From Naegleria gruberi (Eukaryota): a DNA stretch of 64,000 nucleotides. Below are positions 1,291 through 43,043 of this stretch, one piece after another. The DNA lies in assembly GCA_000004985.1 (NCBI GenBank), contig GG738870.1. One strand, given 5' to 3'. Position 1 is the stretch's first letter. Each line of letters begins with the position of its first letter. Under the pieces are notes generated by a model, which saw only the letters and a program-made list of their open reading frames with translations, did not search any database and was not told the origin of the DNA. The translations under genes and the position numbers were made by a program.

Positions 1291-3745
1291 TTATTGACAC
1301 ATATTTTCTGCTCTCCATGTAAATGCTTTAGTAACAGGTGGATAAAGAGCTGCCAAAAGAGCCAAAGTAAGATAAATCAAATAAAGTCCGATCAAATAAA
1401 CACCATACAGTTTTGGAGCTCTGAATTTGAAAGCAGGAACAACAATCACGGATGAAATTAGTGATATCAGCAAGAAAATGAATGAAACATTAACTGTTGG
1501 ATCTTCAGTGAGAGGGAAGCAGAACTTTGTCAACTGTATAGGATTAAATGTTAAGGCAACAAATAAACCGATCAATAAATTAAGCATAGGTCCAGCAAAT
1601 ACAGCACCCAGAGCCATACTAGGATATCCTTGCTTTGAAATCACAATATCTTCAAGTCCAAATATTAAAAACACATCTAAATTAATAATTACTTACCAGC
1701 AATCATATCTGAGATTGAATTTCCCCAAGACAAAACTGTAATAGCCAATACTGAGGTTGGAATGCCAACACTCAAACCTACTGCATCCAAAACATCCAAT
1801 AATTCATTTGCAACAATAAATATCCAAAAGATACACATTGGGAATGCAAACACAACAAATATTGGATGATATCTTGGAGGCTTATTTCTTCTTGTGGTAA
1901 AGAAAATAATAACAGAGAAGAAACTACCCACAATAATCAATATCACAGCAACTGGGAAAACTCCTCCAATCAAAAATATAAACTTATCATAACCAGGTAA
2001 TATCAAGATAAATAGTGGTGAAAATACTGGAATACACATAGCAAACCACTTGTTCCATTCTTCATCTTCACTCTTTGGAATAGTCAAATTTCTCAACAAA
2101 ATCCAAACCCATTCAAATAAGATGAAAGTAATCTTTTGGTACCAAGCCATGTCTGACCATCCAATAGAATCCAAAAACATTAAAACGTATTTCTTTGAGC
2201 CCTTTACCTCTTTCTCTTCTCCTTCCTTATCAGTAGGTTCTTGAACCTTTCTATCACTATTTTCATTTTGGAAATAATCAGTGATAATATATTTGTGTTC
2301 CTTTTCTTCGCCTTCAACATGTTCAGTTTTCTTTGATTCAATGATACCAACTTTAGGAATGTAATATCTTGAAGTAGCAACACGATCCAATGATTTGCTA
2401 TCCTTTACAGAAACTTCCTTGAATATGTCATTTCTAATAAATGTATGTCTCCATCCAGCCCATTGCTCTTCTTCTTCAGATTCACTTCCAGTATCTTCCT
2501 CAACTACTGCCTTGGCATCTGTGTCGATAAGTTCCACTTCTTGGTGTGTATTTTCTGGATTTTGAGAGGTTTGATCATTTTCAGTTTCAGATGGTGTTTG
2601 CTCTTGTGGGATTGAAATGTTGGAAGCCTCCCCTTCACCACTTCCTTCAATCAATCTTTGGCCAAGAGCAGTTTTTTGAAGCTTTGAGGCCTTTTGAGGG
2701 AGCCCCTTAAGTCTTTCTCTTCTTGCTTTGATTCTCTTGTAAACAATTCTTCCAATAATTACTGTTGATACATATACTACATAGATCAATACACAAATGA
2801 TTGATTCCCAAATGAATACTCTTCCGTCAATGTATAAATAAAAAGTGTATGCAACACTAACAATATAAAAGATAACATCTCTAATGAATGGTCTTCTTGC
2901 CAATCCTTTCACATCTGATAAAAGAACAATACCAGCCATAACACAAGATGTCACAAATGTACCACTACCAACTGGTTCACCAACACCAAATTCTGTGTTA
3001 CCATTTGCTACAATACCTACAATCTAATCGAATAATTTTAATTCATTAATATTTCAAGAGATTTTAGAGAACTTACAATAGATGAAAGATCTGTAATTTG
3101 TGTTAAAAAAACTCTATAAAATTCAAGAAACAACTTACCAGGAGCACCATTACCCAAAGCTAAAAGTGTAATACCAGCAAGGTTTGGAGAGAGGTTCAAA
3201 TAATTTGAAATTTTGATAAGGGAAGGTGAAAAGTATGCTTCTGCAGTATCACCCAACAAGTAGAAACATATCAGGACCACAAGAACAGCCAAAATATAAA
3301 AGACTGCTGGAGCCTCATGCAAATCTGTGCAATGAAGCAATTGGAGATACTTGTTGTCTGTGGCACATCCCGATTGATTCCAACTCAGATAACTACATGT
3401 CATATTATAAGGAACCGAGTCAAAATCACAACTTGTGGAAGCATTAATAGATATAAAGTATTGAATCAACACATCCTCATCATCATTTGTATTATTCTTA
3501 GCATCCATAACACTTTCAATCGAATAGTAGTTATTTAATGAATAGTAATCCCTTTGAAAGGATGGAAAATCTGGAATATATTCCCTAGAACTGGCATCCC
3601 TTAATATTGGTGCGTTGGTATGGGAAAAGATCAAGCTTATTCCCAGTGCAAGAGCAGAAACAACGCAGAGAAATAACAATTTGTACATCCACCATCTGTG
3701 TTTTTGCTCCTTTCTAATGCTCGTTCCGTGCAATACACTAACCAT
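1291..3745 (-). CDS. Mitochondrial-type Na+/Ca2+ exchanger (NCLX/CCX family, SLC8B1-like). Four exons on the minus strand: 3139-3745, 3077-3090 (14-nt micro-exon), 1697-3023, 1291-1649
   Basis: Both alpha-repeat motifs are present: splicing at 3139/3090 recreates GNGAPD, and LSWGNSISDMIAG lies in the third exon. RPFIRDVIFYIVSVAYTFYLY aligns to NCLX RPFFRDIVFYMVAVFLTFLML. Introns 3091-3138 (48 nt), 3024-3076 (53 nt) and 1650-1696 (47 nt) all have GTAAGT donors. The exon total is 2307 nt = 768 aa. Confidence 0.75.
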
Positions 3746-4316
3746 TGTGTTAAGATAATAATCAAGCTATTCAATCCTCAGCAAAAAAACCCTTGATGAC
3801 TCGGTGATGGGATTGAGGCCTTTTTTGTTTTGCTTGCGGATCTGTGTGCGCGCACGATTTTTGCCTTATTACTTGAAGGGGTGTAGAAACAGTAAAAATT
3901 AAAGAGTCGAGTGGCTGTTTTCATGTCAAGTGAAAAATTTGTTTTCTTTAATTGATCAAGAAACTAGGCCTATGCAAAGTAATATTAGTGTGGATCCTCT
4001 TAAATTGATCATCAATGCATCCTGTTATTCACTCCAACAGTCCTCCGATCACTCAGAAAATCATCACACAATTAAACCTCCAATATCAAAATAATACATC
4101 ACTCAAAAACTGGTCCATGTTCTTTTTAAGTTATTTCACCATAGTGTGTTCTTCTTGAACTCGAGTTTTGATTTTTGTTTTTAAAATAAAATTGAAAAAA
4201 ATAGCCAACTCTAACGTTTTTGGATCCTTCATTGAAACCATATATTAAATTATTATTATAATTATCGGTTCCGATTGGTTGGCATAATTCAATATTTAAA
4301 ACGTTAATGATCAATA

Positions 4317-5934
4317 ATGGGAAGCTCCGACTATAAAACAAAATTTTCCATCAAGACTGTAGATTCTAACAATCAAACAGTAATTAAATCATTGGAAATA
4401 ACAATAACAAAGGACGATGAAGGACATTACATTCCACAACCAAACTTTTTTACGTGTTGTAGAAAAGGAGATCATGAAACTTTAAAATTATTAATTGAAG
4501 GATTTAAACACGGTTCGCTGACAATGGAAAATATATTGGCAAATAATAAGGATGAAGATAGTACTCATTCGTTTAGTATTTCGGGATTACATATTTTAAC
4601 AAAAATAGCTTCCTTCTTTTATGGAGGAAAATCAGATTCTTCAAGCTCGAGTGTTACCAACTTTCTATCACCCCATGGAAAGAATAGAAGTTTTCAAAGA
4701 TCTCCGCTGCATTATGCCTGTAGATTTGGTCACTTGGAATGTGTAAAATTACTGATCAATGAAGTATCACAACTTCAATTATTAGGTAAGTAGCAAATCA
4801 AATAGCTCATAAATTGACTTATTCATTTCTCCAGGAGAAACTTGTAACAAGTGGACAATTATACACGAATGTGCGAGATTTGGCCGAGTAGATGTATTAG
4901 CATTCCTCTTCTCACATCCTAGGACCATGGAATTTTGTAAAGCAATGTGCTCTAAAGCAACCAAGTTTGGAAGCACACCTCTTCATCTATCGTGCAAGTA
5001 TCGTTACTCTGATACTGCACAATTCCTCTCATCACAATTTATACCCTTCGATAAGATTAGTGTTTCAAGACAACAAAGCTTTCTTCATGTTGCTATTGAA
5101 GAAAAATTGAAACCTTTTGCTGTGGATTTTTTATCTCAATTTATGGCCAACTCTCCAATCACTCATATGAATAGAAAAACTATAATTAATATTGTGGAAT
5201 TGATATGCTCGAAAGATCAATTCAAAACTAATACATTACAATATGCAGCAGCAAAGCCATCAGATCAAATGTATGAAACATTGCTGAGTGCATTAACAAT
5301 TTTACATGAATATATGGAAAATGCTGGAATTGTAAGAAACTTGGTCGGATTGGATTTGGCTGGAAACAGTGTATTGCACTATGCTATGGGAGGAAATAGC
5401 ATGAAATGTGCTTCACTAATCTATCACTATTATTTATTGAGTATTTACCGTAGTAATCCCAACAGTATTGTGATAACTAATCGTAACATTAATGTAAACC
5501 ATGAACTTTTACATTCAAATAATAATCCAATGAATACTCAATCTGGTGTCATGAGACACTCACCACTTTTCCTTGCCTGTAAATATAACCACTCGAAACT
5601 CTTACAAAAATTCCTTCTATTTTACAAAGATGAAATTTATCAAATAGATTCTCAGAAACATTTACAACTGCTATACGAGGGAAACGAATCAAAATATGTA
5701 AAGACTGCACTGTATGACTTTTTAAAAATCAAATCTCAGGAAGAATTTGATTTTATTCTCCAATCATGGAAACAAATTAAGGTAACAGGAGTTGTTGATA
5801 GAATGGGTCATTCACCCTCCAGAGTTAACAAAATCGATGAAAGTGATGAGGAATTACATGAGTTATTTGAGAACTTTAACAAGTGGAAAATTGACTCATC
5901 AATGGCTCCATCAGCATCACTTGCTTTGGAATAA
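4317..5934 (+). CDS. Ankyrin-repeat protein. Two exons: 4317-4784 and 4835-5934
   Basis: Ankyrin consensus repeats are present (SPLHYACRFGHLECVKLLI, TPLHLSCKY, GNSVLHYAMGGN, HSPLFLACKYNH). The 50-nt intron has a GTAAGT donor at 4785 and a CAG acceptor at 4832-4834, and the phase-1 junction is in frame. Confidence 0.7.
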
Positions 5935-6164: not shown

Positions 6165-6521
6165 ATGTCCAGAGAGATTCGCCCTACCGACTTTGACAAC
6201 AAGTTTTTGCATCAAATCAAGTTGAAGGAATTGCCAAAATTCCTCGTTCAACATGCTAACTTGAACGGTGTCTTCAGATTCAACGCTTTCGTCACTAGAA
6301 ACCTTCCTCATCTTTCCTTCAAGCCAACCAGATGGCGTTTCCCTCTTCTTTTTGTTGCTGTTCTCGGTTATCCAGGTTATATTAGAGCTTTCGTTTCTAA
6401 CGATAGAACAAGTGATGCTCTCATCAACGCTAGATTTGGAGATGAAATTAACAATATGACTGAATATCAAAAGAACTACATCAAGACTCGTGTTTTGAAG
6501 ATTATGGCTGAAAACAGATAA
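6165..6521 (+). CDS. Small hypothetical protein, 118 aa
   Basis: A clean ATG-initiated ORF. It may be a small mitochondrial protein with one hydrophobic segment (FPLLFVAVLGYPGYI). No recognisable family. Confidence 0.45.
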   Translation: MSREIRPTDFDNKFLHQIKLKELPKFLVQHANLNGVFRFNAFVTRNLPHLSFKPTRWRFPLLFVAVLGYPGYIRAFVSNDRTSDALINARFGDEINNMTEYQKNYIKTRVLKIMAENR

Positions 6522-13940: not shown

Positions 13941-16730
13941 TTACATTCCATTACTACTTATTGAACTTGCAGTGTTTCCACTACTTGCACTACTACTTGC
14001 ACCATCTGATTGATTCTTCAATGCAACTCTATAGGCCAAGTGTAACCAAGGAGTGTAGAGATTCTCACCACTCATTGAGCTCAATTCAAAGTAGAGCATA
14101 TTGTTGGTGAAGAGTTTGATTCTGGAACCACCATAGGAATGAAGGAATTGAGTGATTCTTTCGTTGGATATTTTAGGTTCCAGATCAGATTTCAATCCAC
14201 AAACGAACACGTAAATATCCTCATTTTGTAAGCACTTTTCAAATAGATTTCTATTTTCTAACAAGTTAAGCTCTGGTGATTTGGTTGCTTGTTGTTTGAA
14301 AATGTACTTGTCGAATAGCTGTAACATATCATCGAATGATTCTGGTCTACTCAAATCAAAACAGAGCATGATTGCTTTGCAAACTTTCAAATAGAGTGGA
14401 ATTAAATTAAGGAATCTTTTCATACCAGAAGTGTCCCATACACTCAGAGAAATGATTGGATTGTACCTTGTCATGATATAGCTGTCAGCCTCTGATGAAA
14501 TTGAATCATCATCTTCCTGAATTTCTGCTGTACCCGTTGGTGTTGGCAAATTAACTTTCACATGTTTCATCAAGTAGGTAGCGCCAATAGTTGATTCAAT
14601 ATATTCAATCTTTTTCACTCGACTTCTATGTTCTACTGTATCTAAATGATTTGAGATGGCCTCCTTCAACATGTAGACCCAAGAGGATTTTCCAGAGGTA
14701 GAATCACCAATGAGACAGACCTTAATTTCGATCATACTCAATCGATATTCTAAACTTTGTGTATTTACATTGTTATGGAATGCACAATAGTTCATCCATG
14801 GTCCATTTCTATAACCCTTATAGATGGATTTATAGATATTCTTCCAACTACTTAGAACCATGGTTGTTTTTTCCTGTGAGAATGGTGAACTCTCTATCAA
14901 CTCTCTGAGGGTAATGTGATCGATGAAGGATGATCCTTGTTTCTTCTCTCTGTCATCAAAGGTTTCAGCAAATTCTGAACTGCTACTCAAATCTGACATA
15001 CTCAAGTTATTGAGATTGTATGGATAGCTAATCCACAACAATGGATGTTCTGTCCAAATGTAGTGGAAAGATCTGCTGACACGACTCAGGTCAATCAAAT
15101 CTGGAGCTGATAGATAGGATAATATGTGGAACATGATTTCATATGGTACGCTCTCTTCGAGTTGACTCAATGAAATCGATCTTTTACCAAAATCACAATT
15201 ATCCTTCCATCCACCATATTCAAAACGAGCATTTAACACTTTTGAATAGCATTCTCTTCTACATTCTCGAGGGGATTTTGGGATCTTCTTTTCTGATGAT
15301 TTCAAATCGTGTGGGCTGGTCTTCTTTTCTGATGAGGGTGTTGGAGTTTTTGGAGTGGTAGTAGAGGGGTTAAGAGTTGTGGAGATTGCAGAATCAGATC
15401 GAAGGGGAGTAATTGGAGTGGGATTATAATTTGAATTCATGGAAGGAGAAAGAAGGTATGAATTCTGTTGAGTGGAAGAAGAAGGAGATTGAGAGGAACC
15501 AAACATGAGGAATGCTCTTCCTCTTGGTCTTTGAAAAGAATTTGGGGAGGACAGGTAATTGGAAGAGGCGATTGAAGTGGAAGGAGAGCCGAGTGTGGTA
15601 TTGGCCAAAGACGACATGATCATTGTTTCATTTGAGATTACAGTGGAGGAGGTTGTCAAGGTGGTACTCACAAGAGAGGGCATTGTAGTGGCTGAGGCAC
15701 CTGTTGTTTCTACAGTGGAAGTGCTACAGCTTGGTGATATTCCTTTTTTACCCATGATCTCTCGTTTCTCATCAGAATTGGATTGAATTTGTCGGGGTGA
15801 TGATTTGGTTGGTTGCTCGCAATGTATAAAATAATCGTCGTCTATTATTTGTGGATCTGATTCCTCTTCATACTCATCATCATTATATTGAGCTATGAAG
15901 GGAATTACTGTTTTTGGAGGAGAGAGTCTCTTATTCACAACAACTGATTCAAACATTGAGAAGGCAATTTCATAAAATTGTGGATCATTTTCTGGATCCA
16001 AATGTATGGTCCAATCAAAGTTTTCCTTTTCAAAATATGAATCAATCAATTGATGCATTCTTCTATTATAATAGTCGTAGTGAGATTTTGGATACAGGCT
16101 CAAACATTGGTGATCAGCGTGATGATGCACAATTTCACCAATATCATTTTTAGAAATTATAGCACTATCATCCATGTGGCTTCTCAAATAATTCCTCGAA
16201 GTTCTGAATGATGTAAAAACCCCAGCACTTGAATCAACTCCTGTTCTACTTGTTGTTACATCTGTATCTTCTTCTCCAATCAGATCTTGTCCAAAGTCCC
16301 TTCTTGAAAAAGAAGTGGCCAGCAAAGTCAACCCAGGACCTCCTTTCTTTTTAATTTCTCTTCTCTTTGATTGGATATCCATTCCACTACTCGTTGTTGG
16401 TGTAGATTGTTGTTCATTCACTAGTCCTCTATTTTCATTATTCGTTGATGATAACATGTTGATTCCTTGAGGAGTTGAAGGTTGTTGTTGTGGTGAATTA
16501 TTCATCCCTGTTGCTTGATTTTTTCTGTACATTTGATTAACTCGTAAGCTTCCATAATATGATCCTTTAGAAGGACTATTGGCTGATGAATTTAACTGAT
16601 CATTGTTCATAATGATCGGTGATGAAGATGGATTATTGGAAGGATGGGGTGTTGGTATCGATGAAACTTCTTTACTTTCATCATCCTGGGAATTTGAACC
16701 AGAAAGTGCTGATGATCCGTGTTGTCCCAT
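13941..16730 (-). CDS. Large protein (929 aa) combining a Ser/Thr/Asn-rich N-terminus, an F-box and a C-terminal atypical Ras/Rab-like GTPase domain
   Basis: One exon. N-terminal MGQHGS is a possible myristoylation signal. F-box: VPYEIMFHILSYLSAPDLIDLSRVSRSFHYIWTEHPLLW. GTPase G1 KVCLIGDSTSGKSSW; G3 WDTSGMKRF with Met in place of the catalytic Gln; G4-like VCGLKSDL; G5-like LSSMSGEN. Confidence 0.75.
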   Translation of the reverse strand: MGQHGSSALSGSNSQDDESKEVSSIPTPHPSNNPSSSPIIMNNDQLNSSANSPSKGSYYGSLRVNQMYRKNQATGMNNSPQQQPSTPQGINMLSSTNNENRGLVNEQQSTPTTSSGMDIQSKRREIKKKGGPGLTLLATSFSRRDFGQDLIGEEDTDVTTSRTGVDSSAGVFTSFRTSRNYLRSHMDDSAIISKNDIGEIVHHHADHQCLSLYPKSHYDYYNRRMHQLIDSYFEKENFDWTIHLDPENDPQFYEIAFSMFESVVVNKRLSPPKTVIPFIAQYNDDEYEEESDPQIIDDDYFIHCEQPTKSSPRQIQSNSDEKREIMGKKGISPSCSTSTVETTGASATTMPSLVSTTLTTSSTVISNETMIMSSLANTTLGSPSTSIASSNYLSSPNSFQRPRGRAFLMFGSSQSPSSSTQQNSYLLSPSMNSNYNPTPITPLRSDSAISTTLNPSTTTPKTPTPSSEKKTSPHDLKSSEKKIPKSPRECRRECYSKVLNARFEYGGWKDNCDFGKRSISLSQLEESVPYEIMFHILSYLSAPDLIDLSRVSRSFHYIWTEHPLLWISYPYNLNNLSMSDLSSSSEFAETFDDREKKQGSSFIDHITLRELIESSPFSQEKTTMVLSSWKNIYKSIYKGYRNGPWMNYCAFHNNVNTQSLEYRLSMIEIKVCLIGDSTSGKSSWVYMLKEAISNHLDTVEHRSRVKKIEYIESTIGATYLMKHVKVNLPTPTGTAEIQEDDDSISSEADSYIMTRYNPIISLSVWDTSGMKRFLNLIPLYLKVCKAIMLCFDLSRPESFDDMLQLFDKYIFKQQATKSPELNLLENRNLFEKCLQNEDIYVFVCGLKSDLEPKISNERITQFLHSYGGSRIKLFTNNMLYFELSSMSGENLYTPWLHLAYRVALKNQSDGASSSASSGNTASSISSNGM

Positions 16731-18564: not shown

Positions 18565-20916
18565 ATGAATTCATACGAAAGTTTAAAAACTATTCGAATC
18601 CCTGTGGAGGTGAAGAAGCACGTTTCTCATGGATCAACAGCTTCTACCAACACATCACTAGAAGATCAAATAGTTCACCAACTAATGAATTACAGTGAAG
18701 ATGCCGTTGTAAAGGGCTACCTTTCCCTCCACGTGCCACTTCCACCTAATCTTGTAAATTATTCGAAAGATTTCTCAACCGATCCACAAACTTTAGAACA
18801 ATTCATGAGTGATTCCAATCCAAGAATTGAAACTTGTAAGCCACGCCATCAAGATAGACAACACCAACATGAAATTAAGAGAGTTTCTGCATCGATCAAG
18901 AGCCAAGTTGAAAAACAAAGTCAACCAGAAAACAAGGTTGACAAAAGTCAATGGATTGCCAGGGCAATGAAGAGAAATCCACATATATTGGCTTTATTGG
19001 AAAGGTCTCGTCCACTGAATAATCAACCATCCCTATCAATGATCAAACCAAGACAATCATCAACAAATTCTAGTCAACCGACAAGTGAAACTAATTCTCC
19101 AAGAAGTACTGCCTCTCCAACAGTTGCCACTGATCACAATCCAGGAGGAACTGTTAATATGGATCTACTCTCTTCAAAGGGAAGAGATTCAATGAAGTCA
19201 TCACTCACAGAATCACCAAACTCTAGCTCTCATAATTTGCTCAAGTACATGTCAGCTGTTCAAGTTGACCAACAGATTGTGACCAATATTGAAGAAAAGA
19301 AGAGCATTTTAGACTATTCCACCTTCTTGGGAACTGTTGAAAATAAGGAAGTTCTCCCTCGTGAAGGATTACTTCAAATCATTTATCAATTCATGGCTCA
19401 GAAAGGTTATTACAATACCATTAAGGAAATGGAAAAGGAAACTGGTATAAAATATAATGGTTTCAGATCTGAGAAGGCTTCTAATAGGGATACTCTGATG
19501 GAAACTCTACTAAGTCTCGGAATTCAAGATGCTGAAAATCCATATCAATTACCACCTTCAGATTTTGTGAATGTTAACAAAGATAGTGAGATTCCAACGG
19601 CAAGCATTCATCATCATTACGATCCAAAGTTCGTCAAGGAAATGCAAATACCATTGTGGGAAGAGTTAGCTCAATCTGATGAAGATTCAATTGTAATGGA
19701 GGGAAAGGAAGTCAAAGCAGCAACCCTTAATAGACTGATTGAAATGGTGACAAGCACTGAAGCAGATACCAAGATTGGAATTCAAAGTTTCTTGGTGACT
19801 TATCGTTCTTTCACTGATCCTGGAATTCTTTTGAAGAAATTATGTGAAAGATATCAAGTTCCAAATCGTATTCCATCCAGTGAGAGAATTCAGATCCAAT
19901 TGAGAACTAGTGCTGTTTTCATCAAATGGATTGAAGATTACTTCTCATGGGATTGGAATGATAACATGATTTATGAATTCTTGCTATTCATTGACAAGTA
20001 TATTATGAAAGATAAGAAAATTGTGGGAGACAAACTCAAACAGAAATTAGCTCAAAAATTAGTTTTCAAGAGTAAGGACAATACTCTGGTATTTAGTGAA
20101 CAGTTTATTTATCCAGAGGTTCCAAAAAATGTATTCTCTTCCAAGTTATCTATTTGGGATATTAAGGATGAAGAGTTGGCAAAGCAATTGACATTTATGG
20201 ATCATAACATTTATAGAAATATTGAACCACATGAATTGTTGGATTGTGCTTGGTCAAAGGCAAATCTTAGACATAGAGCAAAGAATATTCTTCAATCCAT
20301 TTCGTATGTAGAAACCCTATCAAATTGGTTAGAATGTCAAATTGTAAGAGAAGAATCTTTGAGAGAAAGAAAGATGAAACTTTCCAGATTGATGAAACTT
20401 GCCATTCTCATGAACAAGCTCAACAATTTCAATTCTCTAATGGCACTGTCTTCCACCTTCAACAAATCCTCAGTACATCGTCTCAAATTTACAATTGCAG
20501 AAATAGACGAAACTCTAAAAAAGGAATTTGATGAAGCCATTGCCATTGTCGATCCAAAGAAACAGAAAAACTATTCCACTCTTCGTAATCACATCAAGAA
20601 AGTTGCCAAACCTCCACTAAATGTCTTCCTAGGAGTTTATCAAACCGATCTCATCATGATTGAGGAAGGAAATCCTGATTTCACATCCAATTCCAATGAA
20701 AGAACATTAATTAATTGGAAGAAGAGAAGATTAGTAGCAACTACCATATCAGAAGTGATGGATTTCAAGAATCCACCGTATAACATTAGACCAGTTCAAC
20801 AAATTCAAGAATTATTGAGGACAACTTTTGAAAATCATGACATTACTGATGTGTATGATATTTCAATGCAAGTTGAGCCTAGAAATACTGTTAGAAAAGA
20901 AGATTTAGTTCCATAA
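18565..20916 (+). CDS. Ras guanine-nucleotide exchange factor with LisH-like motif, RasGEF N-terminal (REM) domain and CDC25-homology domain, 783 aa
   Basis: CDC25 motifs: ELAKQLTFMDHNIYRNIEPHELLDCAWSK, NFNSLMALSSTFNKSSVHRL, VFLGVYQTDLIMIEEGNPD. REM-like: EGKEVKAATLNRLIEMVTS. LisH-like: LLQIIYQFMAQKGYYNTIKEMEKETG. One exon. Confidence 0.85.
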   Translation: MNSYESLKTIRIPVEVKKHVSHGSTASTNTSLEDQIVHQLMNYSEDAVVKGYLSLHVPLPPNLVNYSKDFSTDPQTLEQFMSDSNPRIETCKPRHQDRQHQHEIKRVSASIKSQVEKQSQPENKVDKSQWIARAMKRNPHILALLERSRPLNNQPSLSMIKPRQSSTNSSQPTSETNSPRSTASPTVATDHNPGGTVNMDLLSSKGRDSMKSSLTESPNSSSHNLLKYMSAVQVDQQIVTNIEEKKSILDYSTFLGTVENKEVLPREGLLQIIYQFMAQKGYYNTIKEMEKETGIKYNGFRSEKASNRDTLMETLLSLGIQDAENPYQLPPSDFVNVNKDSEIPTASIHHHYDPKFVKEMQIPLWEELAQSDEDSIVMEGKEVKAATLNRLIEMVTSTEADTKIGIQSFLVTYRSFTDPGILLKKLCERYQVPNRIPSSERIQIQLRTSAVFIKWIEDYFSWDWNDNMIYEFLLFIDKYIMKDKKIVGDKLKQKLAQKLVFKSKDNTLVFSEQFIYPEVPKNVFSSKLSIWDIKDEELAKQLTFMDHNIYRNIEPHELLDCAWSKANLRHRAKNILQSISYVETLSNWLECQIVREESLRERKMKLSRLMKLAILMNKLNNFNSLMALSSTFNKSSVHRLKFTIAEIDETLKKEFDEAIAIVDPKKQKNYSTLRNHIKKVAKPPLNVFLGVYQTDLIMIEEGNPDFTSNSNERTLINWKKRRLVATTISEVMDFKNPPYNIRPVQQIQELLRTTFENHDITDVYDISMQVEPRNTVRKEDLVP

Positions 20917-41950: not shown

Positions 41951-43043
41951 ATGAATGAGCAAAACTCTTCCACAACATCCGCTCCAGAGGAAAGACAAAG
42001 AGGTTTGAGCAATGGAGAAGCAAGCTCTTCAATCTTCCAAACACCATCAAGAAACAACAATGAGGAAGGTTTTTCTGCCTCAACACCCTTCTCGGCTTTT
42101 AGAACAGCTAAGAAGGAGGAAGAACAATCATCATCACAAGGAGGAAATGAAGTATCAGCAGTTAAGGCTAAATATACTGAAAAAACACCATCAGCAGTGA
42201 AATCAGAAACTAGAAATTTGTTGAAGAGAATGGATACAGATGATGCTCTGGAAGCCTTTGAACAATTGTACACTTTGAGTTTGTTTGGTAAGTATCAAGG
42301 TGATCGTTTAAAATTAATAACAATCACACAAACAGCCAGTCACAGACAGCAAATGCTCGATACTGGAGTTATCAGTTCCCTCACTTTGGCATTAAAAACA
42401 AAGCAAAATCGTATCAGGGAATATTGTGCAAGGACTCTTCAATTATTTGCTCAAGACGGAGAAGAGAGTTGTATCGCAATGAAGAGACTCAATATGTGTA
42501 ATTCTAGTTTGGAAATTATTTCTAAAGTTGATGATTTGAATGTAAGAATAACTGTAGTTGGATTAATTTATTGGCTCTGTCAAAATCGTATGTAAATAAT
42601 TATTAGATATATTCAAAATTTCCCATACAATAGCACATTGTAAAAAAGAATTTGTTGATATGGGAACTGAATCCTACATTAAGGAAATTTCAAATAAGAA
42701 TAAGGATCCAATGCTTGCTAAATATTTGAATTATGTATTACACAGTCTCTCCAGTAGAGTGAAAAGTAGAGAAGAAATGTTGAATGAGATTCTTCTCCAA
42801 CAAAAGGAAATGCAAGCTTTGGAACAAGAAAAGAAACAAGACTTTATCCCATATGTAAATCCATCTCCAAGACACTTTTTCAATATTTCTAAAACCCCTT
42901 CTTCCTCTCCAATGACAACCCCAAGAAAAAAGTTAGATTTCTCCACTCCTTCAAAAGCTAACACATCCTTTTCTCAAACTGAAAAATCCACAACCCTAAG
43001 ATCTGAATTGGTTTACGAATCTGATGAATTTGGAGGTCAATAA
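41951..43043 (+). CDS. Armadillo-like hypothetical protein. Two exons: 41951-42587 and 42634-43043
   Basis: The first ATG is 41951 (track start is TTG). GTATGT donor at 42588, TAG acceptor at 42631-42633; the phase-1 junction joins ...YWLCQN|P|HCKKEFVDMGTES. ARM-like: VISSLTLALKTKQNRIREYCARTLQLFAQ. Total 348 aa. Confidence 0.5.

What the first reader, a model, noticed from the sequence alone, without database searches (positions are those of the whole stretch)
3024..3138. 14-nt micro-exon flanked by 48- and 53-nt introns in the Na+/Ca2+ exchanger gene
Only the two-intron model reproduces the conserved alpha-1 repeat GNGAPD-LSSI. It also matches NCLX spacing to the RPFFRD block (47 aa against 46). 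Read-through hits a stop. The single-intron alternative loses the conserved Asp and 5 residues.
Basis: partly seen in the sequence, partly recalled or inferred. Interest (0 to 1): 0.5.

Follow-up and report, generated by a model that had tools for sequence, protein, structure and literature searches.

The report
Annotated 14-nt micro-exon, Naegleria exchanger gene
The 14-base exon between two ~50-base introns is real and is needed to rebuild the calcium-binding motif of a Naegleria gruberi NCLX-type cation/calcium exchanger, but the same gene model is already in the public genome annotation, so the finding is correct and ordinary.

Summary
The window is Naegleria gruberi NEG-M DNA. A CCX/NCLX-type Ca2+/cation exchanger gene lies on the minus strand (3745..1291).

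Intron 1 is 3138-3091 (48 nt, GTAAGT..ACAG). The micro-exon is 3090-3077 (ATCTTTCATCTATT). Intron 2 is 3076-3024 (53 nt, GTAAGT..TTAG). Splicing gives GNGAP-DLSSI-IVG.

The full 768-aa product is residue-for-residue identical to the deposited protein XP_002676826.1 / EFC44082.1 (NAEGRDRAFT_68012). The micro-exon is therefore already annotated.

Independent support:
- N. lovaniensis, N. fowleri and other relatives read GNGAPDLSSIIVG.
- The model ranks first of 114 possible open GT-AG models.
- Its Pfam score is 16 bits above either alternative.
- A ~98%-identical second strain has 6 substitutions in the 101 intron bases, none in the micro-exon, and a TGA inside intron 1. That excludes intron 1 as coding sequence.

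Intron 2's position is shared with N. lovaniensis and a third Naegleria lineage. Intron 1 was seen only in N. gruberi and is probably a lineage-specific gain that created the micro-exon.

Minor corrections: a single 3138-3024 intron is out of frame. The in-frame single intron (3138-3017) loses 7 residues. No transcript data were available.

The parts
3139..3745 (-). Exon 1 (ATG at 3745). Encodes the N-terminal region and the first half of the alpha-1 repeat, up to GNGAP plus the first base (G) of the Asp codon.
   Evidence: ORF 3038..3745. The spliced model equals XP_002676826.1.
3091..3138 (-). Intron 1: 48 nt, GTAAGT...TTACAG, phase 1 inside the Asp codon of GNGAPD. It is in frame and stop-free in this strain. 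Seen only in N. gruberi among the relatives with DNA.
   Evidence: There are 2 substitutions in the second strain L005, one of which makes an in-frame TGA. It is absent at this position in N. lovaniensis L001 and in L006, L007 and L004.
3077..3090 (-). 14-nt micro-exon ATCTTTCATCTATT. Supplies the last two bases of the Asp codon plus Leu-Ser-Ser-Ile.
   Evidence: DLSSI is identical in P0001-P0004. There are 0 substitutions in L005.
3024..3076 (-). Intron 2: 53 nt, GTAAGT...GATTAG, phase 0 between Ile and Ile. It contains the TAA (3040-3038) that ends the read-through ORF.
   Evidence: N. lovaniensis has an intron at the same position and phase (48 nt), as does L006 (38 nt). There are 4 substitutions in L005.
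1697..3023 (-). Exon 3. Encodes the rest of the alpha-1 repeat and first Na_Ca_ex domain, the acidic hydrophilic loop, and the second Na_Ca_ex domain up to GNSISDMIA.
1650..1696 (-). Intron 3: 47 nt, GTAAGT...TTGAAG, phase 1, inside the alpha-2 repeat (GNSISDMIA|DIVISKQGYP).
   Evidence: The joined sequence aligns ungapped to NCLX GNSIGDAFSDFTLARQGYP. This intron is absent from N. lovaniensis.
1291..1649 (-). Exon 4, ending with the stop codon at 1293-1291.

Best explanation
The region holds two ordinary short spliceosomal GT-AG introns (48 and 53 nt) in the N. gruberi gene NAEGRDRAFT_68012, a CCX/NCLX-family Ca2+/cation exchanger. They are separated by a constitutive 14-nt exon.

Both introns must be removed and the 14 nt kept. 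This completes the Asp codon (G|AT) of the alpha-1 signature GNGAPD and keeps the frame. That Asp aligns with the Ca2+-coordinating D153 of human NCLX.

Shown here:
- the exact boundaries;
- identity of the product to the deposited protein;
- agreement with orthologues;
- intron-like divergence of both flanking segments between strains.

Inferred:
- In a genome with ~50-nt introns, each intron is recognised across itself (intron definition), so a very short exon needs no special enhancer machinery.
- Because 14 nt is too short to hold 3'-splice-site and 5'-splice-site complexes side by side, the two introns are probably removed one after the other.
- Skipping the exon would shift the frame, so inclusion must be essentially constitutive.
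- Intron 2 is ancestral in Naegleria. Intron 1 was most likely inserted later, in the N. gruberi lineage, 14 nt upstream of it. That insertion created the micro-exon.
For: - The sequence has canonical GTAAGT donors and AG acceptors.
- The 768-aa product is identical to XP_002676826.1/EFC44082.1. Neighbouring window ORFs are also exact N. gruberi NEG-M proteins on the same 418,085-nt contig.
- GNGAPDLSSIIVG is present in N. lovaniensis, N. fowleri and two EukProt relatives.
- Pfam Na_Ca_ex scores 69.7 bits for this model, against 53.5 (intron 1 retained) and 53.6 (single 122-nt intron).
- The model ranks first of 114 open GT-AG models.
- NCLX is the only PDB hit (E 7.5e-60). D203 aligns to D153, with a single 1-residue gap before RPFxRD.
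- D153 and D471 coordinate Ca2+, and D153N or D153A-D471A impair transport (PMC12571890).
- GNGAPD is the CCX alpha-1 signature (PMC3355786).
- In the second strain L005 the introns carry 6 substitutions in 101 nt and the exons 10 in 795 nt (Fisher p = 0.0055). The micro-exon has none, the splice sites are intact, and intron 1 carries an in-frame TGA.
- Intron 2's position and phase are conserved in N. lovaniensis and in L006.
- The other GTAAGT introns inferred in the window are 44-57 nt long.
Against: - No transcript evidence was available. No RNA-derived N. gruberi protein was found, and the gene was not on record in the contig index.
- The deposited protein is itself a computational gene model.
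- Intron 1 has no positional counterpart in any relative examined.
- In NEG-M, intron 1 is 3n and stop-free, so a retained-intron isoform would escape a premature stop.
- The splicing order and the intron-definition mechanism are inferred from general knowledge. They were not tested.
Confidence: 0.93

Rival explanations
1. Only intron 2 (3076-3024) is spliced. The 48 nt called intron 1 are coding sequence, giving a 784-aa protein with a 16-residue insert (GNGAP-GKLFLEFYRVFLTQIT-DLSSI).
For: The 48 nt are a multiple of three with no stop in frame, so this model is fully open. Gene finders often prefer to avoid micro-exons. It ranks 4th of 114 models.
Against: - The sister strain L005 has an in-frame TGA there (AGA>TGA at 3115) and a second substitution within the 48 nt.
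- No relative has an insert at this point.
- The model replaces the Ca2+-coordinating Asp of GNGAPD with Gly and splits the Pfam match, dropping the score to 53.5 bits.
- The segment starts with GTAAGT, ends with ACAG, and has the typical local intron length.
- This exact protein is not in the 15-billion-sequence collection.
Confidence: 0.03
2. A single 122-nt intron (3138-3017) removes the whole region, giving a 761-aa protein with GNGAP-GIVANG.
For: It has a GT-AG intron and an open frame. It needs no micro-exon.
Against: - It loses DLSSIIV, including the conserved Asp. The Pfam score falls to 53.6 bits.
- It does not appear in the ten best-scoring models printed from the enumeration against the orthologue.
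- It leaves unexplained why an internal 14 nt encode exactly the orthologous DLSSI, flanked by AG and GTAAGT, and stay unchanged between strains while their flanks diverge.
- 122 nt is far from the 44-57 nt of the other introns in the window.
- This protein is not on record.
Confidence: 0.02
3. The locus is a decaying pseudogene, and the apparent micro-exon is a remnant of disrupted coding sequence.
For: The unspliced reading terminates at 3040-3038.
Against: - With three canonical introns the whole 768-codon frame is open.
- Both Na_Ca_ex domains score well above the Pfam cut-off (69.7 and 78.6 bits against 24.9).
- The exons are about five times less diverged than the introns between strains.
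- The interruptions have perfect splice signals.
Confidence: 0.01

Closest known systems
Deposited gene model NAEGRDRAFT_68012 (XP_002676826.1 / EFC44082.1 / UniProt D2VGK6) of Naegleria gruberi NEG-M
   Same: The protein is identical over all 768 residues. With GT-AG introns this requires the same three introns and the same 14-nt exon.
   Different: Nothing differs at the sequence level. The record calls it only 'predicted protein'. It names no family and makes no comment on the micro-exon.
NCLX / SLC8B1 (NCKX6), CCX family of the CaCA superfamily; structures 9z4i, 9ps1
   Same: - It is the only PDB relative (E 7.5e-60), and both alpha-repeat domains align.
- The alpha-1 signature GNGAPD is present, and D203 aligns to the Ca2+-coordinating D153.
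- The spacing to RPFxRD differs by one residue.
- Metagenome relatives are labelled 'sodium/potassium/calcium exchanger 6'.
   Different: - Identity was not tabulated. The two aligned domain stretches scored 97.8 and 114.1 bits.
- The N. gruberi protein is longer (768 aa against about 585), with a long acidic central loop.
- The alpha-2 motif reads GNSISD rather than the G(N/D)SxGD signature (PMC3355786).
- Localisation and the transported ions are unknown.
Orthologous genes in N. lovaniensis (C9374_009486, locus L001) and in an uncultured Naegleria lineage (L006)
   Same: The protein is 55% identical, and the GNGAPDLSSIIVG block is identical. A short GTAAGT intron sits at exactly the intron-2 position and phase.
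   Different: They have no intron at the intron-1 position, so they have no micro-exon. N. lovaniensis also lacks intron 3 and has a different intron after residue 90.
Constitutive non-3n micro-exons described in animals and plants (e.g. the 4-bp MPC1 micro-exon, PMC9929638; plant micro-exons of 15 nt or less, PMC8831610)
   Same: This is a very short exon whose length is not a multiple of three. It lies inside a conserved domain, so it must always be included. It is the kind of exon that annotation pipelines often miss (abstracts listed).
   Different: Here the flanking introns are only about 50 nt, in a protist where intron definition is expected rather than exon definition. No tissue-specific regulation (the SRRM4 type) is implied. 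In this case the annotation did not miss it.

Membership tests
Short spliceosomal GT-AG intron (both flanking segments) | GT at the 5' end and AG at the 3' end | tested here: met
   Both segments start with GTAAGT. They end with ACAG and TTAG.
Short spliceosomal GT-AG intron (both flanking segments) | Length within the range of other introns of the same genome | tested here: met
   They are 48 and 53 nt. The other ORF-restoring GTAAGT introns inferred in the window are 44-57 nt. That scan used only GTAAGT donors, so it is a partial sample.
Short spliceosomal GT-AG intron (both flanking segments) | Removal restores an open frame and the conserved protein sequence | tested here: met
Short spliceosomal GT-AG intron (both flanking segments) | Evolves faster than the flanking exons, with splice sites preserved | tested here: met
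   Compared with strain L005, there are 6 substitutions in 101 intron nt and 10 in 795 exon nt (Fisher p = 0.0055). The splice sites are intact.
Short spliceosomal GT-AG intron (both flanking segments) | Intron position shared with orthologues | tested here: inconclusive
   Intron 2 is shared with N. lovaniensis and L006. Intron 1 is absent from all four other genomic loci examined. Position sharing is not a requirement for being an intron, but it means intron 1 lacks this line of support.
Short spliceosomal GT-AG intron (both flanking segments) | Spliced junctions observed in RNA | not testable with these tools
   No transcript-derived N. gruberi sequence was found.
Micro-exon | Internal exon of at most about 30 nt (smallest class: 15 nt or less) | tested here: met
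   The exon is 14 nt, 3090-3077. The size classes are as used in PMC8831610 and PMC7821500.
Micro-exon | Included in the mature mRNA | not testable with these tools
   Inclusion is inferred from the exact DLSSI match to orthologues, and from the frameshift if the exon is skipped.
CaCA superfamily, CCX (NCLX/NCKX6) family | Two Na_Ca_ex (PF01699) membrane domains | tested here: met
   The N-terminal domain scores 69.7 bits and the C-terminal domain 78.6 bits, against a cut-off of 24.9.
CaCA superfamily, CCX (NCLX/NCKX6) family | Alpha-1 signature GNGAPD | tested here: met
   It is present only in the two-intron model. The signature is as given in PMC3355786.
CaCA superfamily, CCX (NCLX/NCKX6) family | Alpha-2 signature G(N/D)SxGD | tested here: inconclusive
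   The sequence reads GNSISD, with Ser where the signature has Gly. The terminal Asp, aligned to NCLX D471, is present.
CaCA superfamily, CCX (NCLX/NCKX6) family | Closest characterised relative is NCLX rather than NCX, NCKX or CAX | tested here: met
   NCLX chains are the only PDB hits at E <= 0.001.
CaCA superfamily, CCX (NCLX/NCKX6) family | Ca2+/cation exchange activity and its ion specificity | not testable with these tools
   This needs a transport assay.

The most novel reading that the evidence does not exclude
Intron 1 is a recent, N. gruberi-lineage-specific intron gain. It landed inside the codon of the Ca2+-coordinating Asp, 14 nt upstream of an older intron, and so created an obligatory non-3n micro-exon. 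If so, the locus is a dated natural example of micro-exon birth by intron insertion. It would also be a compact test case (48 + 14 + 53 nt) for how an intron-definition spliceosome in a discoban protist handles an exon too short to hold both splice-site complexes at once. In NEG-M the new intron is 3n and stop-free, so its retention could also give a transport-dead in-frame isoform.
Probability: 0.55. Interest if true: 0.25.

Novelty: already known. Interest (0 to 1): 0.1.

Why it matters
It matters little beyond quality control. It shows that the deposited N. gruberi model for this exchanger is very probably right at a place where gene finders usually fail. It also shows that 'predicted protein' NAEGRDRAFT_68012 can be named a CCX/NCLX-type Ca2+/cation exchanger with an intact Ca2+ site. 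A small side value is a well-bounded example of intron turnover: four different intron positions within about 25 codons of one conserved motif across related amoebae, and a probable micro-exon birth by intron gain.

Tried and rejected
- **Genomic records.** Looking up the N. gruberi and N. fowleri genes (P0028, P0002) found neither on record. The N. fowleri intron structure and the deposited CDS join coordinates could therefore not be read directly.
- **Transcript evidence.** A second database search with the 168-aa junction region, meant to find RNA-derived N. gruberi fragments, returned only genomic or metagenomic fragments.
- **Intron origin by duplication or a repeated 'introner' element.** Similarity between intron 1 and intron 2 is no better than shuffles (p = 0.48). 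No copies longer than 14 nt occur elsewhere in the window. This was rejected within the limits of 64 kb.
- **Enumeration script.** The first two runs returned zero models because of a wrong suffix filter. This was corrected.
- **Rejected models.** Retention of intron 1, a single 122-nt intron and a pseudogene were each considered and rejected, for the reasons given under the rival explanations.
- **GTAAGT frequency.** The hexamer occurs 33 times on both strands of the window. My own base-composition estimate, not a tool result, predicts about 44. The hexamer alone is therefore no evidence. The evidence lies in its placement and in the restored frame.

Full report
**Source and gene.** The window has about 33-35% G+C. 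Several of its ORFs are exact matches to Naegleria gruberi NEG-M proteins on one 418,085-nt contig:
- NAEGRDRAFT_79896 at 6165-6521;
- a Rab-family GTPase at 13944-16730;
- a RasGEF protein at 18565-20913.

This agrees with the published 33% G+C and 1.7 exons per gene of N. gruberi (PMC8296547). The finding lies in a minus-strand gene running from the ATG at 3745 to the stop at 1293-1291.

**Checking the observation.** On the minus strand, exon 1 ends ...GGT AAT GGT GCT CCT G at 3139. The following parts come next:
- a 48-nt segment, GTAAGT...TTACAG (3138-3091);
- 14 nt, ATCTTTCATCTATT (3090-3077);
- a 53-nt segment, GTAAGT...GATTAG (3076-3024);
- exon 3, starting ATT GTA GGT at 3023.

A third short intron (1696-1650, 47 nt) interrupts the alpha-2 repeat. 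Joining the four exons gives one open 768-codon CDS reading ...LALGNGAPDLSSIIVGIVANGNTEFGVGEPVGSG.... The unspliced frame stops at TAA 3040-3038, inside the second segment.

**Alternatives.** Three other readings were built.
- Retaining the 48 nt is possible. The segment is a multiple of three and stop-free, and gives a 784-aa protein with a 16-residue insert after GNGAP.
- A single intron 3138-3017 (122 nt) is in frame and deletes DLSSIIV. That is 7 residues, not 'Asp and 5'.

An exhaustive enumeration covered all GT-AG combinations with 0-2 introns of 30-200 nt in 3199-2928. It gave 114 open in-frame models. Searches were faulty runs of the same script.

**Homology evidence.**
- The Pfam Na_Ca_ex score of the N-terminal half is 69.7 bits for the micro-exon model. 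It is 53.5 with intron 1 retained (the match is split) and 53.6 for the 122-nt intron.
- The best database relatives are N. lovaniensis C9374_009486 (55% identity) and an N. fowleri protein (54%).
- These two, plus two EukProt relatives, read GNGAPDLSSII(V/I) exactly. More distant CCX proteins read GNGAPD(I/L/V)(F/S)S.
- NCLX is the only solved-structure relative (9z4i, 9ps1; E 7.5e-60). Its alignment is ungapped through the junction region, places D203 on NCLX D153, and needs a single one-residue gap before RPFxRD.
- GNGAPD is the published CCX alpha-1 signature (PMC3355786).
- D153, together with D471, coordinates Ca2+ in the NCLX cryo-EM structure. D153N or D153A-D471A impairs transport (PMC12571890).
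- Both alternative models destroy this residue.

**It is already annotated.** An exact-sequence look-up shows that the 768-aa product of the micro-exon model is identical to EFC44082.1 / XP_002676826.1 / D2VGK6 ('predicted protein', NAEGRDRAFT_68012). The two alternative products are not in the collection. With canonical GT-AG boundaries no other splice pattern gives this sequence. The public 2010 gene model therefore already contains the 14-nt exon. The record carries no family name.

**Independent comparative evidence.** Locus L005 is a metagenome contig about 98% identical to window 4829-2850, from a second N. gruberi-like strain. Its differences from the window fall as follows:

| Region | Substitutions |
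|---|---|
| Intron 1 (48 nt) | 2 |
| Micro-exon (14 nt) | 0 |
| Intron 2 (53 nt) | 4 |
| Exon 1 (607 nt) | 9 |
| Covered part of exon 3 (174 nt) | 1 |

That is 6 in 101 intron bases against 10 in 795 exon bases (Fisher p = 0.0055). All four splice sites are intact. The change at 3115 turns AGA into TGA in the frame of exon 1, which rules out intron 1 as conserved coding sequence.

The relatives with genomic DNA show the following at this motif:
- **N. lovaniensis (L001).** GNGAPDLSSI is contiguous and is followed by a 48-nt GTAAGT...AACAG intron in phase 0, exactly where intron 2 lies. There is no intron at the intron-1 site.
- **L006, a third Naegleria-level lineage.** It is 61-64% identical to both species and shows the same pattern with a 38-nt intron.
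- **L007, a more distant relative.** It has neither intron, but has another one about 14 codons downstream.
- **L004 (assembly GCA_006365135.1).** It has a 50-nt intron 6 nt upstream of the intron-1 site, inside the second Gly codon of GNG, and none at the intron-2 site.

Intron 2 is therefore old within Naegleria. Intron 1 was seen only in the two N. gruberi strains. One gain in that lineage is the most parsimonious reading, but loss elsewhere is not excluded. N. fowleri DNA could not be retrieved.

**Mechanism.**
- *Shown:* two canonical short introns flank a 14-nt exon whose inclusion is required for both the frame and the Ca2+-binding Asp.
- *Inferred from general knowledge of splicing:* with introns of about 50 nt, splice sites are paired across the intron. 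A very short exon then needs no exon-definition enhancers. Because 14 nt cannot hold the upstream 3'-site and downstream 5'-site complexes together, removal is probably sequential. Skipping gives GNGAPDCRYCSKW* and would be unproductive.
- *Origin:* no sign of intron origin by duplication or from a repeated element was found.
- *Length:* other ORF-restoring GTAAGT introns in the window are 44-57 nt, so the two introns are typical in length.

**What could not be done.** No transcript-derived sequence from N. gruberi was found. The splice junctions therefore rest on comparative and coding evidence, plus a deposited model that is itself computational. Ion specificity and localisation of the protein are untested. 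The 'Na+/Ca2+' label is a family label, and recent work argues that NCLX is an H+/Ca2+ exchanger. The alpha-2 motif reads GNSISD, one residue off the published G(N/D)SxGD signature.

**Verdict.** The novelty is nil, because the identical gene model is public. The remaining point of mild interest is the probable lineage-specific gain of intron 1, which created the micro-exon.

Noticed in passing
window 1650-1696 (minus strand): A third short intron (47 nt, GTAAGT..GAAG, phase 1) interrupts the alpha-2 repeat four codons after its conserved Asp (GNSISDMIA|DIVISKQGYP). N. lovaniensis has no intron there. It has a different 55-nt intron after residue 90 that N. gruberi lacks. Only one of four intron positions is shared between the two species.
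   Followed up: partly
L004 1380-1660 (NCBI assembly GCA_006365135.1, contig VFQM010010878.1): A distant homologue has a 50-nt intron (GTTTGA..TTGTAG) in phase 1 inside the second Gly codon of GNG|APD. That is 6 nt upstream of the N. gruberi intron-1 site and in the same phase. The gene is called as two separate ORFs there, and a frame change around 1470-1490 looks like an indel or another unrecognised intron. The source organism could not be identified.
   Followed up: partly
L007 560-760 (JGI metagenome 3300043817): Another relative has no intron in GNGAPDLSSIIVG, but has a roughly 40-nt GTAAGG..CTAAG intron after GVGV. A prokaryote-style gene caller split the gene into two overlapping ORFs. 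Together with the other loci, this makes four different intron positions within about 25 codons of one conserved motif.
   Followed up: partly
window 3091-3138 versus L005 1669-1716: Intron 1 is 3n and stop-free in NEG-M, so retention would add 16 in-frame residues. The 98%-identical metagenome strain has a TGA in that frame. The open frame in NEG-M is therefore most likely chance. My rough estimate, not a tool result, is about a 1 in 10 chance for an AT-rich 48-mer.
   Followed up: yes
window 3920-3951 (intergenic, upstream of the exchanger gene): The second strain (L005) lacks a 15-nt stretch and several smaller ones here. The intergenic/promoter region between the exchanger gene and the divergent ankyrin-repeat gene carries most of the indels between the strains.
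   Followed up: no
window 4318-5934 (+): There is an ankyrin-repeat-like gene whose frame is restored by a 49-nt GTAAGT..TCCAG intron at 4786-4834. The adjacent 5' part in L005 is flagged with weak Ank Pfam hits.
   Followed up: no
window 42288-42335 (+): This is another candidate 48-nt GTAAGT..AACAG intron that is also 3n and stop-free. Its flanks are open for 127 and 85 codons. It was not examined further.
   Followed up: no
database behaviour: The full-length homology search did not list the window's own deposited protein. Its 90% cluster is represented by a 210-aa metagenome fragment (P0029) that reads through into intron 1. The annotated model was only found by exact-sequence look-up.
   Followed up: yes
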